A stretch of DNA of 64,000 nucleotides from Deltaproteobacteria bacterium (GTDB lineage Bacteria > SAR324 > XYD2-FULL-50-16): positions 30,965 through 94,964 of the forward strand of contig JABGPJ010000058.1 of the NCBI GenBank assembly GCA_018645005.1, in the 5' to 3' direction. Both the position numbers and the translations under genes were made by a program. Positions 5,425 to 8,359 of the stretch are shown one piece after another. Each line of letters begins with the position of its first letter. Position 1 is the stretch's first letter. Below the pieces are notes generated by a model that saw only the letters and a program-made list of their open reading frames with translations, searched no databases and was not told the DNA's origin.

Positions 5425-6330
5425 ATGCCCTTTTCACTCAATATCCCACAAAACACCCCTGCCCCTAAAAAACCGTGGCCTAAACGATTTCCTGTTTTAC
5501 TGCCTCTCTTCGTTTTTCTACTTCTAATTATTGGGTATTCGTTACTCAACCGATCCGTTGCCCCTCCGTTGATCGGTATTATACCCATCGAAGGTGTTAT
5601 ACTTGAATCTGAAACGATCATTAAAAAAATCAGAGAGCTGGAAACCAATCCACAGGTAAAAGGGATCATTGTACATATTAACAGCCCAGGTGGCGCAGTT
5701 GCCCCCTCACAGGAAATTTTTTCCGAACTCATTCGCATTAAGTCCACAAAAAAAGTATACGCCTCATTATCGTCCGTTGCTGCATCAGGTGGATATTATA
5801 TCGCCATCGGCGCTGAGAAGATCTATGCAAACCCCGGATCATTAACCGGAAGTATCGGTGTGATCATGCAATCATTCAATGTTCAGAAGCTCATGAATCG
5901 ATTGGGCATTAACGTGGAAATTATTAAGTCAGGTGAAAACAAGGATATAGGATCTGCATTTCGTTCAATGAAAATGGCGGAACGTAAATTGCTAGAATCG
6001 GTATTAGAAGACACACACAGACAATTTGTGAATGCCGTCCTTGAAAACAGGCCCATCGCTACAGACAGAATGCGGTTTCTTGCTGATGGTCGGATTTTTT
6101 CCGGCAAACAAGCGCTGCAACATGGTCTGATTGATGGACTGGCCGGTTTTCGTGAAACCGTAGAAGAAATGAGAAATGCACTGGGGATTACAGAAGCGGT
6201 GCAACTTTATTATCCATTAGACAAAAAGGATGCAATCCTGTCTATGCTTGATTTGGAATCAATTTTCCCGATCAAAAAGACGTTTACCTACACAGGTTTG
6301 TTTTATCTGGGATCATTCCTTAATTATTAA
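5425..6330 (+). CDS. sppA: Signal peptide peptidase SppA, 36K type (S49 family)
   Basis: N-terminal TM anchor, INSPGGAVAPSQEI and SVAASGGYYIA blocks typical of the S49 ClpP/crotonase fold. 301 aa. Confidence 0.85.
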   Translation: MPFSLNIPQNTPAPKKPWPKRFPVLLPLFVFLLLIIGYSLLNRSVAPPLIGIIPIEGVILESETIIKKIRELETNPQVKGIIVHINSPGGAVAPSQEIFSELIRIKSTKKVYASLSSVAASGGYYIAIGAEKIYANPGSLTGSIGVIMQSFNVQKLMNRLGINVEIIKSGENKDIGSAFRSMKMAERKLLESVLEDTHRQFVNAVLENRPIATDRMRFLADGRIFSGKQALQHGLIDGLAGFRETVEEMRNALGITEAVQLYYPLDKKDAILSMLDLESIFPIKKTFTYTGLFYLGSFLNY

Positions 6331-6366: not shown

Positions 6367-7164
6367 ATGAACAAGAGCTCAACGGCCAATCTGAACGTCA
6401 CTTTTCTGGGTTGCTCAAAGGATCCGATCGAAATTTTATATTCCTCTTCCAAGATCAGGCAATCTCCTGATGATGCCGCGAAAATCTGGCAACAGATACA
6501 AAGTGGTGAGATAACTCGAGAGGCCATGGTCAATTATGCGGCCAAAAATTTAGGGAGTAATTATCAAACCCCGCTGAAGCAGGCACAGTTCTTATTTGTT
6601 GTAGATAATATTAGTCAGATAGGCACCTCTTATTTTAATCGACAACAAATTGAATCAGACAAAAACAATATTGCCCAAAGTTACCTGGAGTTACAAAACA
6701 AGGATCAAACTGCTGTGACCCCGCCATCATTTCAAGTCAATCCCGAACTTTTAGAAAAATGGTCCAATCTGCAGACGGATATTGTCGCATTTTACAATTA
6801 CTGTCGTGATCAGGGCGTTGAAGCGGATGATGCAGGATTCGCTTTACCTCGAGGGCTCCGATGTCGTGAGCAAATATCCATGAGCTTCCAGACGATGCAA
6901 CGATTTCTCGATCAGAAAATGTGCGAAAAAATCCAGTGGGAAATAAATGAGTTAAGCTGGCAGATTTTTCAGATTATGAAAAAAGAATTTCCAACACTGG
7001 CGAAAAGGCTAGGGATAAAGTGCTGGGAAAACCGTAATCTTTTTTGTGATGAACCTCATCAAATATATGAATCCTGCAAATGGCACAGATCCAGACCCCA
7101 TAAAGATGATTTGAACAGTCTTTGGGCCAGGGAAAACAATTTGACCTCACAGGCTGTCATGTAA
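6367..7164 (+). CDS. ThyX-fold (flavin-dependent thymidylate synthase-like) protein with degenerate catalytic motif
   Basis: Aligns by eye to ThyX blocks. TPLKQAQFLFVVDNISQIGTSYFNRQQIESDKNNIAQSY corresponds to TPFEHxxFTFxVxxxxxxxxQxxRHRxxSxxxxSxRY. DAGFALPRGL...FLDQKMCEKIQWEINELSWQI corresponds to ARxxLPxxL...FLxxRxxxxAQWEIrxxA. Confidence 0.6.
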   Translation: MNKSSTANLNVTFLGCSKDPIEILYSSSKIRQSPDDAAKIWQQIQSGEITREAMVNYAAKNLGSNYQTPLKQAQFLFVVDNISQIGTSYFNRQQIESDKNNIAQSYLELQNKDQTAVTPPSFQVNPELLEKWSNLQTDIVAFYNYCRDQGVEADDAGFALPRGLRCREQISMSFQTMQRFLDQKMCEKIQWEINELSWQIFQIMKKEFPTLAKRLGIKCWENRNLFCDEPHQIYESCKWHRSRPHKDDLNSLWARENNLTSQAVM

Positions 7165-7305
7165 CCCCCACCTTAAGTCCGATACCCTCTTAATTATATG
7201 TCTCCGGAATCCGTGCTATTGAAATAGATTAGATTGTTGGTACGTTTTTTGAATTATAGTTACCAACTCGTTTTTATTCCAATCACCCCTTACAAAGGAG
7301 ACAAG

Positions 7306-7563
7306 ATGTTTGTTCAGGCTTTGAGAAAGGTGGCAACGCAATTGGAATATTTGACTCAGTACAGCATTACATTGGAACGTGCTTTGGATCTGCTGGAGAC
7401 GTCAACACAGGACCTGGAAGAGATAGTTGCCATCAATACTATGAGGGAAAGCATGGGGGAGCTGCATGATATCGTAAGAATCAGTAAACAGCTGGACCCA
7501 GAAATGATTTTTTCATCTGATATAACTAAGAAACAAACCACGAAAATTTTATACCATGCCTAA
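7306..7563 (+). CDS. Hypothetical small protein (85 aa from the internal ATG)
   Basis: The ORF track gives 7234..7563. The ATG at 7306 is preceded by a good RBS (AAGGAGA). No recognisable motif. Confidence 0.4.
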   Translation: MFVQALRKVATQLEYLTQYSITLERALDLLETSTQDLEEIVAINTMRESMGELHDIVRISKQLDPEMIFSSDITKKQTTKILYHA

Positions 7564-7630: not shown

Positions 7631-8359
7631 TCAATCCTCATTCACGTAGTCAACTACCCTCTCTTTGAAAAACTTCCGCGCCTTCGACAGATAATCTTGG
7701 TCCTTGTGCTCCATCACAATCTTCACCTTTACCGCATCCCCTACATAACACGGGTACGAACCCAGCTTTAAATCAGGAAACTGCGCTAGTGTCTGTTCCA
7801 GGTATTCCGTAATTTCGCCTTCATCCGCAACGAGATTGATTTCTGCAACCGGATTGACAACCCCTTGAAACCGGTCTTTGATCAAGAGGAATATAGCCCG
7901 GAGAAATTCAGGCACACCAGGAAATATGGTTATATTTCTGAACTGTAAAACCGGAATATGTGGTCGTGAAGTTTTCAGCAGCATCGTACCCTCAGGCACT
8001 CGGGCCATACGCATATGTTCAGGCGTGCAATTGGCGCCATACATTTTTTTAATCCGATTTTCAATCTCTGTATGGGTAATCAACGGAACCTTGAACCCCA
8101 GAGCCAGACTTTCCATAGTGATATCGTCCGGTGTAGGACCGATACCACCGGAGGTAAACACCCAGGTGACCTGTCTGGAATACTCCAGGGCGATTCTGCT
8201 GATGATCTCTTTTTCATCGGGAATCGTCAGGCAATATTTAACGTTCACGCCTTGAGAAGCCAACTGTTTTATTAAAAAAGGCGAATTCTGATCCTCATAT
8301 CTGCCGGACAGGATTTCATCTCCAATAATAATAATTGCTGCTGTATTTTCCTGAGTCAT
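7631..8359 (-). CDS. CinA-like / MoCF-biosynthesis (molybdopterin-binding) domain protein
   Basis: IIIIGDEILSGRYEDQNSPFL... and TSGGIGPTPDDIT are hallmark motifs of the MoaB/MogA/CinA N-terminal domain. Confidence 0.75.
   Translation of the reverse strand: MTQENTAAIIIIGDEILSGRYEDQNSPFLIKQLASQGVNVKYCLTIPDEKEIISRIALEYSRQVTWVFTSGGIGPTPDDITMESLALGFKVPLITHTEIENRIKKMYGANCTPEHMRMARVPEGTMLLKTSRPHIPVLQFRNITIFPGVPEFLRAIFLLIKDRFQGVVNPVAEINLVADEGEITEYLEQTLAQFPDLKLGSYPCYVGDAVKVKIVMEHKDQDYLSKARKFFKERVVDYVNED

What the first reader, a model, noticed from the sequence alone, without database searches (positions are those of the whole stretch)
6367..7164. ThyX-fold protein with a degenerated RHRxxS catalytic motif and a Cys/His-rich C-terminal tail
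The protein aligns by eye to both conserved ThyX blocks, but the residues that define the enzyme are replaced. The RHR of RHRxxSxxxxSxRY reads NRQ (FNRQQIESDKNNIAQSY, nt ~6637..6645). The Arg of ARxxLP reads Gly (DAGFALPRGL). The SGRY Arg reads Gln. The QWEI helix is retained. A C-terminal extension, CWENRNLFCDEPHQIYESCKWHRSRPH, has a C-x7-C-x3-H-x6-C-x2-H spacing suggestive of metal binding. This looks like a ThyX paralogue that has lost dUMP binding and been recruited to another role, either a different nucleotide substrate or a non-catalytic one. No canonical thyA or thyX is in the window, so it is unclear whether this is the genome's only ThyX homologue.
Basis: partly seen in the sequence, partly recalled or inferred. 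Interest (0 to 1): 0.6.

Follow-up and report, generated by a model that had tools for sequence, protein, structure and literature searches.

The report
Dead thymidylate synthase kept for its cysteine module
This gene is the SAR324 lineage's own flavin-dependent thymidylate synthase (ThyX), which lost its catalytic residues where relatives carry a replacement enzyme, yet selection still preserves it, most strongly a four-cysteine, probably metal-binding, module that also occurs in many active but unstudied ThyX enzymes.

Summary
The 265-aa ORF at 6367..7164 (+) is real. It has a ThyX fold: Pfam Thy1 scores 79 bits and Foldseek returns only ThyX structures. It lacks nearly every dUMP-, FAD- and folate-site residue and fails the curated ThyX equivalog model (49 bits against a cutoff of 87.9).

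It is not a paralogue. It is the syntenic orthologue, just downstream of sppA, of the thyX gene that is the only thymidylate synthase found in sister SAR324 genera. Those copies are catalytically intact and score 115-123 bits.

Degenerate copies form one nested, long-branched clade. In seven of eight genomes they co-occur with a thyA-folA cassette or a second, unrelated thyX. The eighth is the window's own genome, which is only 68% complete. Three sister genomes deleted the gene cleanly.

It is not a pseudogene. All copies examined are intact, and dN/dS is about 0.14. The old active-site loop is relaxed (0.25-0.59), while the region holding C186, C219, C227, C237 and R243-P244-H245 is tightly constrained (0.04-0.08). 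Only one new conserved residue has appeared, C16, so a new substrate pocket is unlikely.

The Cys module is ancestral. Many active ThyX from Chloroflexota, Binataceae and Omnitrophota carry it, and I found no literature on it.

Best reading: a ThyX pseudoenzyme kept for a metal-module-dependent, non-catalytic role. The nature of that role is inferred, not shown.

The parts
6367..7164 (+). Degenerate ThyX orthologue (265 aa): ThyX fold, catalytic residues lost, Cys4 module retained
   Evidence: ORF. PF02511 scores 79.2 bits. TIGR02170 scores 49.1 bits against a cutoff of 87.9. Foldseek returns only ThyX. dN/dS is 0.13-0.16 against close orthologues.
6412..6414 (+). C16, the only residue newly fixed in the degenerate clade (53% Cys in active orthologues, 97% in degenerate ones)
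6562..6564 (+). Y66, at the position of T. maritima H53 (a flavin/folate-site histidine, retained in all active orthologues)
6637..6684 (+). Degenerated ThyX motif NRQQIESDKNNIAQSY (canonical RHRxxSxxxxSxRY). It lies in the fastest-evolving, low-pLDDT part of the protein.
   Evidence: Alignments. pLDDT is 41-53. Region 57-113 has dN/dS 0.25-0.59. Conservation collapses here.
6835..6837 (+). G157, at the position of the dUMP-binding R147
6916..6918 (+). K184, at the position of the catalytic R174
6892..7104 (+). Conserved Cys module (residues 176-246): Q178, F180-L181-D182, C186, W191-E192, P209, G216, K218, C219-W-E-N-R223, C227, C237, R243-P244-H245. Proposed metal (Zn or Fe-S) site.
   Evidence: Invariant columns. 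dN/dS is 0.04-0.08. C186 co-occurs with the tail cysteines (138/149 sequences, Fisher p = 8e-7). The tail has no PDB sequence match.
5425..6330 (+). sppA (Peptidase_S49), the conserved upstream neighbour, 36 nt before the ThyX-like start; probably co-transcribed
   Evidence: Pfam. Synteny. No promoter-like or terminator-like site on the + strand in the gap.
7306..7563 (+). Conserved 85-aa ORF downstream (true start ATG 7306), with no Pfam family. It is present next to both active and degenerate copies, and also where the ThyX-like gene has been deleted.
7631..8359 (-). CinA-like protein (MoCF_biosynth plus the FAD-synthase middle domain FLAD1_M), a convergent neighbour seen in the degenerate-copy loci examined and in the loci where the gene is deleted

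Best explanation
The gene is the SAR324 lineage's ancestral thyX. It belongs to a ThyX subclass that carries a four-cysteine module: one Cys in the core helix next to the catalytic Arg174 position, plus three Cys and an RPH triplet in a C-terminal tail.

In the ancestor of genera g1 and g6, thymidylate synthesis passed to another enzyme. Today that enzyme is a thyA-folA cassette in g1 and in G018, and an unrelated tail-less thyX in the rest of g6. The resident thyX then lost its dUMP, FAD and folate contacts and is dead as a thymidylate synthase. This step is shown by residue loss and by comparison between genomes; no activity was assayed.

The gene has nevertheless been kept as an intact ORF under purifying selection across a deep, diverse clade. 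Constraint is now concentrated on the Cys module, and the old active-site loop drifts (shown).

Inference: the protein is a pseudoenzyme that keeps a secondary function already present in the ancestral Cys4-ThyX. That function most likely depends on a metal centre (Zn2+ or an Fe-S cluster) held by C186, C219, C227 and C237, possibly with H245 or C16, on an intact ThyX scaffold. Structural, partner-binding, or redox or metal sensing roles are all possible. Which of these applies is not resolved. The role is dispensable in some lineages, because three sister genomes (two genera) deleted the gene cleanly.
For: Fold and family.

Loss of catalytic residues. The protein fails the curated equivalog TIGR02170 at 49 bits, and other degenerate members score 21-60. 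Active orthologues score 115-123 and other Cys4-ThyX 158-169, against a cutoff of 87.9.

Orthology: profile A1 hits coincide with the only strong Thy1 locus in G004, G005, G006, G009, G010, G012 and G015. The synteny sppA, thyX, small ORF is conserved.

Displacement: 7 of 8 genomes with a degenerate copy have ThyA (310-318 bits, adjacent to folA) or a second ThyX (175-179 bits). None of the 8 genomes with an active copy has a full alternative. Fisher p = 0.0014; the genomes are not phylogenetically independent.

Single nested degenerate clade: 36 representatives, SH-aLRT 94, inside a SAR324 family supported at 99. The sppA species-proxy tree is compatible with this.

Selection: all 14 orthologues are intact. 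Whole-gene omega is 0.13-0.155, against 0.05-0.09 for the neighbouring genes. The Cys module has omega 0.04-0.08 and the ThyX-motif region 0.25-0.59.

No new pocket: 52 positions conserved in active copies collapse in degenerate ones, 30 stay conserved in both groups (mostly residues 176-245), and only C16 is gained.

The Cys module is ancestral and behaves as one unit.
Against: - No biochemical data exist. Loss of activity is inferred from residues alone.
- Metal binding is inferred from invariant cysteines. The tail is modelled at only pLDDT 50-70, and I could not inspect model coordinates to check that the cysteines lie close together.
- The window's own genome shows no thyA, folA or tdk. 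At the site where congener G001 has thyA-folA next to a LUD-domain gene, G000 has an unrelated gene. So a replacement enzyme is not demonstrated in this particular genome, which is 68% complete.
- G003, G013 and G011 (genera g2 and g10) deleted the gene, so any retained role is not essential.
- Degenerate proteins evolve about twice as fast as active ones, so part of the pattern is simple relaxation.
- Monophyly of the degenerate clade could be inflated by long-branch attraction.
Confidence: 0.7

Rival explanations
1. Neofunctionalised enzyme. The ThyX scaffold now binds and modifies a different nucleotide or other small molecule.
For: The fold is intact and under purifying selection. ThyX paralogues with altered substrate range are known (PolB; PMC5954106, read). 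C16 became fixed in the degenerate clade.
Against: The former active-site positions take different residues in each degenerate lineage, with no convergent new motif. The ThyX-motif region is the least conserved and least constrained part, with omega 0.25-0.59 and a mean top-residue frequency of 0.37. FAD-contact residues are also lost. The genomic context is housekeeping synteny, not a biosynthetic cluster. PolB keeps the ThyX motif.
Confidence: 0.1
2. Functionless relic. After displacement by thyA or a second thyX the gene is simply decaying slowly and will eventually be lost.
For: It evolves faster than the active orthologues. Three sister genomes (G003, G013, G011) deleted it cleanly. The sppA-to-thyX spacing is wider in degenerate loci (36-55 nt) than in active ones (-4 to 17 nt).
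Against: Omega is 0.13-0.16 overall and 0.04-0.08 in the Cys module. No frameshifts or internal stops occur in any of the six degenerate orthologues examined, and all 36 divergent cluster representatives, down to about 35% identity, are full length. The four Cys, R243 and H245 are invariant.
Confidence: 0.1
3. Still the cell's thymidylate synthase. It would be a highly divergent but active ThyX that is the only source of dTMP in this genome.
For: No thyA, no other thyX and no tdk were found in the window's assembly. Public annotations call family members 'FAD-dependent thymidylate synthase'.
Against: H53, H79, R80, S88, R90, R147, R174 and H178 are all replaced. The score is far below the equivalog cutoff. 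Congeners with equally degenerate copies carry thyA-folA. The assembly is 68% complete.
Confidence: 0.04

Closest known systems
Flavin-dependent thymidylate synthase ThyX (EC 2.1.1.148; PF02511, TIGR02170), e.g. Thermotoga maritima TM0449
   Same: Same fold (Foldseek probability 1.0) and a significant Pfam match. The QWEI helix, Y91 and overall length are retained. It is orthologous to active ThyX in sister genera.
   Different: It lacks H53, H79, R80, S88, R90, R147, R174 and H178 and falls below the equivalog cutoff. It carries a Cys4 module that is absent from every ThyX with a solved structure that it aligned to.
Active 'Cys4-tail' ThyX of SAR324 sister genera (e.g. P0010, from a Candidatus Lambdaproteobacteria MAG), Chloroflexota (Thermobaculum, Limnocylindria), Binataceae and Omnitrophota
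   Same: The same four cysteines and, in the long-tail forms, the RPH triplet, with the same tail length. The SAR324 members share its locus.
   Different: These keep the full catalytic signature and pass TIGR02170 at 115-169 bits. In SAR324 sister genera they are the only thymidylate synthase in the genome.
Atypical ThyX of Corynebacterium glutamicum NCHU 87078 (PDB 3fnn, 3ge9), described in the PDB titles as not required for thymidylate biosynthesis because ThyA is present
   Same: A ThyX homologue coexisting with ThyA and dispensable for dTMP synthesis. It is the top Foldseek hit.
   Different: From my background knowledge, not tested here, that protein retains the ThyX motif. It has no Cys4 tail in the aligned region. 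The window protein has lost the motif altogether.
PolB-type ThyX paralogues in nucleoside-antibiotic biosynthesis (Streptomyces)
   Same: A ThyX-family protein used for something other than housekeeping dTMP synthesis (PMC5954106).
   Different: PolB arose by duplication, keeps catalysis (it methylates UMP and dUMP) and sits in a biosynthetic cluster. The window protein is an orthologue, has lost its catalytic residues and sits in housekeeping synteny.
Pseudoenzymes in general (catalytically dead homologues retained for non-catalytic roles)
   Same: Enzyme fold, catalytic residues lost, purifying selection maintained.
   Different: No partner or regulatory role has been identified. I found no report of a ThyX pseudoenzyme.

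Membership tests
Thy1/ThyX fold family (Pfam PF02511) | Significant match to the family HMM above the gathering threshold | tested here: met
   79.2 bits against 24.8, E 4.5e-22, covering residues 35-210.
Thy1/ThyX fold family (Pfam PF02511) | ThyX three-dimensional fold | tested here: met
   The AF2 model (pLDDT 75) hits only ThyX chains: probability 1.00, E 2e-7 to 2e-6, TM 0.46-0.60.
FAD-dependent thymidylate synthase, functional equivalog (TIGR02170; EC 2.1.1.148) | Score at or above the curated equivalog cutoff | tested here: not met
   49.1 bits against 87.9. Active orthologues score 115-123.
FAD-dependent thymidylate synthase, functional equivalog (TIGR02170; EC 2.1.1.148) | ThyX motif RHRxxSxxxxSxR (R78, H79, R80, S88, R90 in T. 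maritima numbering) | tested here: not met
   The motif reads NRQQIESDKNNIAQSY. At most one Arg is retained. H79 and R80 are Q and Q, S88 is A, R90 is S.
FAD-dependent thymidylate synthase, functional equivalog (TIGR02170; EC 2.1.1.148) | dUMP-binding and catalytic arginines R147 and R174, and the flavin/folate-site histidines H53 and H178 | tested here: not met
   G157, K184, Y66 and K188 at these positions.
FAD-dependent thymidylate synthase, functional equivalog (TIGR02170; EC 2.1.1.148) | dUMP to dTMP activity with CH2H4folate, FAD and NAD(P)H; complementation of a thyA mutant | not testable with these tools
   Needs an enzyme assay or complementation in an E. coli thyA deletion strain.
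Cys4-tail ThyX subclass (informal; defined here) | A Cys two residues after the R174 position, plus three tail cysteines (C-x7-C-x9-C in the long form) and, in the long form, an RPH triplet | tested here: met
   C186, C219, C227, C237 and R243-P244-H245. These are invariant in the SAR324 family and shared with canonical ThyX of other phyla.
Cys4-tail ThyX subclass (informal; defined here) | The cysteines bind a metal or an Fe-S cluster | not testable with these tools
   Inferred from invariance and co-occurrence only. Needs ICP-MS, UV-vis or EPR, or a structure.
SAR324 thyX orthologous group | Same syntenic position (downstream of sppA, upstream of the 85-aa ORF) and nesting within the SAR324 ThyX clade | tested here: met
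   Synteny. Clade support is 99.
PolB-type neofunctionalised ThyX paralogues | Retained ThyX catalytic motif and location in a nucleoside-antibiotic gene cluster | tested here: not met
   The motif is lost. The neighbours are sppA, a Na/Ca exchanger, a cinA-like gene, DUF3187 and aspartokinase.
Pseudoenzyme (operational definition) | Homologous to an enzyme, catalytic residues missing, gene maintained by purifying selection | tested here: met
   Lack of activity itself was not assayed.

The most novel reading that the evidence does not exclude
The four-cysteine module is an Fe-S cluster (for example [4Fe-4S]) sitting next to the flavin and dUMP site. Its core ligand lies two residues after the Arg174 position. 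In the large, unstudied Cys4-ThyX class, the cluster would feed electrons to FAD from a ferredoxin-type donor instead of, or in addition to, NAD(P)H. In the catalytically dead SAR324 copies the cluster-bearing scaffold would have been retained on its own, as a redox, oxygen or iron sensor or as an electron-transfer or adaptor protein. That would be the first ThyX-derived pseudoenzyme, and would reveal a second cofactor in a major branch of a drug-target enzyme family.
Probability: 0.15. Interest if true: 0.8.

Novelty: new variant of a known kind. Interest (0 to 1): 0.55.

Why it matters
ThyX is an essential enzyme and an antibacterial drug target, and it is normally treated as a single-function flavoenzyme. 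Two things here bear on that view.

First, this is a natural knock-out of catalysis. The orthologous gene lost its active site in lineages whose present-day members carry another thymidylate synthase, yet it has been kept under selection over long evolutionary time. That implies the ancestral enzyme had a second job, separable from dTMP synthesis.

Second, the part under the strongest selection is an invariant four-cysteine module. Many active ThyX of Chloroflexota, Binataceae, Omnitrophota and SAR324 share it. It is absent from every ThyX with a solved structure that aligned, and I found no paper describing it. If it binds a metal or an Fe-S cluster, a large branch of the family has an unrecognised cofactor.

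On the practical side, public annotation labels these dead copies 'FAD-dependent thymidylate synthase'. That would mislead metabolic reconstructions of SAR324, an abundant deep-ocean group.

Tried and rejected
1. Treating the gene as a paralogue alongside a canonical thyX. Rejected: the 'strong' Thy1 hits in sister genera turned out to be the same locus, so they are orthologues.

2. Treating the Cys tail as an innovation of the degenerate form. Rejected: it is also present in active ThyX.

3. Locating thyA-folA in the window's own genome through synteny with G001 and G002. The conserved LUD-domain neighbour sits mid-contig on G000 C167 with no thyA beside it. This is inconclusive about presence elsewhere in the genome.

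4. Salvage as an alternative dTMP source. Tdk is present in G001 and G002 but was not found in G000. Uninformative, given 68% completeness.

5. dN/dS between genera. Synonymous sites were saturated, so I used the closer trio instead.

6. Searching PDB sequences with the tail alone. No hits.

7. Literature searches for ThyX with Fe-S, zinc, cysteine-rich, pseudoenzyme or SAR324. Nothing relevant.

8. The search for related loci with an alignment of Cys4-ThyX failed because no stretch was conserved enough. The short-tail protein P0070 found no relatives, so the taxonomy of the short-tail forms, apart from Omnitrophota, remains unknown.

10. Earlier scan notes near this locus. None concerned this gene.

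11. Spatial proximity of the four cysteines in the AF2 model. I could not check this because coordinates are not exposed.

Full report
**Observation.** The ORF at 6367..7164 (+) encodes 265 aa. It matches Pfam Thy1 (PF02511) at 79.2 bits, E 4.5e-22, well above the 24.8-bit threshold. It scores only 49.1 bits on the curated ThyX equivalog TIGR02170, whose cutoff is 87.9. An AlphaFold2 model built on 24 homologues (mean pLDDT 75, pTM 0.73) retrieves only ThyX chains from the PDB (Foldseek probability 1.00, TM 0.46-0.60).

The phmmer alignment to T. maritima ThyX and two MAFFT alignments agree on the substitutions. H53 is Y66. RHR...S.RY reads NRQQIESDKNNIAQSY (nt 6637..6684). S88 is A, R90 is S, R147 is G157, R174 is K184 and H178 is K188. 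Y91 and QWEI are kept (coordinates checked). The SGRY arginine aligns with Ser, not Gln. The conserved set is C186-x32-C219-x7-C227-x9-C237-x7-H245.

**Who carries it.** A word-indexed search found 29 relatives, all from SAR324 or 'Lambdaproteobacteria' MAGs and annotated 'FAD-dependent thymidylate synthase'. A full HMMER scan of 1.84 billion cluster representatives with the family profile found 37 representatives at E <= 1e-30, grading into ordinary ThyX.

**The gene is an orthologue, not a paralogue.** I searched 41 related genomes with PF02511, PF00303 for ThyA and the family profile A1.
- In seven genomes of sister genera (G004, G005, G006, G009, G010, G012, G015; 88-100% complete), the only Thy1 hit (150-165 bits on Pfam) is the same locus as the A1 hit (395-433 bits). 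None of them has a full ThyA. G004 has only a 78-bit fragment at a contig end.
- These proteins, and that of G022 in a different family of the same order, share one catalytic signature: H53, R78, H79, S88, R90, Y91, R147, R174. They pass TIGR02170 at 115-123 bits. They are evidently the cells' thymidylate synthase.
- The locus is the same everywhere: uppS, cdsA, dxr, rseP, panE, a hexapeptide protein, (a Na/Ca exchanger), sppA, thyX, a small ORF, (a cinA-like gene), DUF3187, aspartokinase. sppA ends -4 to 17 nt before active copies and 36-55 nt before degenerate ones.

**Degeneration tracks displacement.** The window's genus g1 (G000, G001, G002) and genus g6 have degenerate copies, scoring 37-79 bits on Pfam.
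- G001, G002 and G018 each have ThyA (310-318 bits) directly adjacent to folA.
- G007, G014, G016 and G017 have no ThyA. They have a second, very different, tail-less ThyX of about 305 aa with a perfect RHR...S.RY motif (175-179 bits).
- So 7 of 8 genomes with a degenerate copy have an alternative synthase, against 0 of 8 with an active copy. Fisher p = 0.0014, but the genomes are not phylogenetically independent.
- The exception is the window's own genome. It is 68% complete and shows no thyA, folA or tdk. The LUD-domain gene that flanks thyA in G001 and G002 sits mid-contig in G000 with no thyA next to it. The cassette is therefore not at that site, and whether it lies elsewhere is unresolved.
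- In G003 and G013 (ThyA-folA present) and in G011, the syntenic block is intact but the ThyX-like gene is cleanly absent, with only 140-190 nt between sppA and the small ORF.

**Phylogeny.** A tree of 90 family and outgroup proteins recovers the SAR324 family with support 99. Within it there is a short-branched basal grade of active proteins and one nested clade of 36 degenerate representatives (SH-aLRT 94) with long branches. A species-proxy tree from the adjacent sppA gene groups g1 with g6, weakly (68/61), which is compatible with one ancestral loss of catalysis. Long-branch attraction could exaggerate the monophyly.

**It is not a pseudogene.**
- All 14 orthologous genes examined are intact.
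- Between genera, synonymous sites are saturated. Where omega could be computed it is 0.15-0.29 for degenerate pairs and 0.02-0.09 for active pairs.
- For the close trio (window, P0002, P0003; 73-75% identity; dS 0.76-1.05), omega is 0.13-0.155. The neighbours sppA and the cinA-like gene give 0.07-0.09 and 0.05-0.06.
- By region, residues 57-113 (H53 loop and ThyX motif) have omega 0.25-0.59. Residues 176-246 (the Cys module) have 0.04-0.08.

**What is conserved.** I compared 15 active with 34 degenerate family members.
- 52 positions that are at least 95% conserved in active proteins fall below 50% in degenerate ones. They concentrate in residues 57-113 and at the R147, R174 and H178 equivalents.
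- 30 positions stay at least 90% conserved in both groups, mostly in 176-245: Q178, F180, L181, D182, C186, E192, P209, L211, L215, G216, K218, C219, W220, E221, N222, R223, C227, C237, R243, P244, H245.
- Only C16 became newly fixed (53% to 97%).
- The six degenerate orthologues carry different residues at the former catalytic positions. So there is no sign of a new, conserved pocket.

**The Cys module is ancestral and widespread.** The same four cysteines, and in long-tail forms RPH, occur in proteins with a complete catalytic signature that score 158-169 bits on TIGR02170. These come from Chloroflexota (Thermobaculum, Limnocylindria), Binataceae and Omnitrophota. Among 149 full-length hits, 138 have both the core Cys and at least 3 tail Cys, and none of the 5 lacking the core Cys has a Cys-rich tail (Fisher p = 8e-7). 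The hit list is biased by the query profile, so this is not a census. T. maritima ThyX has Asp at the core position and no tail. The tail has no sequence match in the PDB. Full-text searches found no paper on a metal-binding ThyX or a ThyX pseudoenzyme.

**Interpretation.**
- Shown: ThyX fold, loss of the catalytic and cofactor contacts, orthology with active thyX, co-occurrence with replacement synthases in relatives, purifying selection focused on the Cys module, and no new conserved site.
- Inferred: the protein is catalytically dead as a thymidylate synthase and is retained as a pseudoenzyme for a function that the ancestral Cys4-ThyX already had. That function depends on a metal centre (Zn or Fe-S) bound by C186, C219, C227 and C237. 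Because C186 lies two residues after the R174 position, such a centre would sit close to the former flavin and nucleotide site. In active enzymes this suggests a redox or structural role. In the dead copies it may serve sensing, partner binding or scaffold stabilisation.
- The role is not universally essential, because some lineages deleted the gene.

**Rivals.** A new-substrate enzyme (about 0.1) is disfavoured by the non-convergent, fast-evolving former active site. A functionless relic (about 0.1) is disfavoured by omega and by the intact ORFs across a deep clade. An active sole synthase (about 0.04) is disfavoured by the loss of essentially all defining residues and by thyA-folA in the congeners.

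**Limits.** There is no biochemistry. The window's own genome is incomplete. Earlier scan notes near the locus did not concern this gene.

Noticed in passing
window 7306..7563 (+): An 85-aa ORF (true start ATG 7306, not the TTG at 7234) lies just downstream of the ThyX-like gene. It is much more conserved than that gene, being nearly identical in L036 and L037. It is recognisable across SAR324 through the core motif L-x-R-A-L-D-L-x-E-A-S-T-Q-D-L-E-E-I-V. It has no Pfam family. It persists even where the ThyX-like gene is deleted.
   Followed up: partly
P0042-P0079 and beyond; loci L044-L123 (Chloroflexota): A large class of catalytically canonical ThyX carries an invariant four-cysteine module: one core Cys two residues after the R174 position, plus a C-terminal C-x(5-7)-C-x(6-9)-C, often followed by RPH. 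No solved structure that aligned has it, and no paper in the library describes it. It may be an unrecognised metal or Fe-S cofactor site in ThyX.
   Followed up: partly
L002-L005 (G007, G017, G016, G014): Genus g6 genomes carry a second, roughly 305-aa, tail-less ThyX with a perfect RHRTANVNEYSTRY motif, on a very long branch away from the SAR324 family. It was probably acquired horizontally. A congener, G018, has thyA-folA instead, so the replacement synthase differs within one genus.
   Followed up: partly
G024-G040 (class-level relatives, family f6), e.g. G024:C3:83296-84585: These genomes encode a single ORF of about 540-565 aa with two tandem Thy1 domains (a fused pseudo-dimeric ThyX). 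They have no ThyA and no member of the window's family.
   Followed up: no
G022:C4:112471-113090: Three short fragments match only the helix region of the family profile (positions 174-212). Each is interrupted by stop codons. They lie in tandem immediately downstream of that genome's intact thyX, and look like repeated partial pseudogene copies.
   Followed up: no
G001:C429, G002:C108, G018:C1, G003:C3, G013:C64: thyA and folA are always adjacent (about 20 nt apart) in the SAR324 family-f1 genomes that have them. The cassette's flanks differ between genomes, which suggests a mobile or repeatedly relocated two-gene unit.
   Followed up: partly
window 7631..8359 (-): The convergent neighbour combines a MoCF_biosynth (CinA-like) domain with the FAD-synthase middle domain FLAD1_M. 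It is present at the degenerate-copy loci examined (window, L020/L021, L036, L037) and where the gene is deleted (G003, G011, G013), but not at the active-copy locus L018/L019. It is a flavin-related gene next to a former flavoenzyme, which may be coincidental.
   Followed up: no
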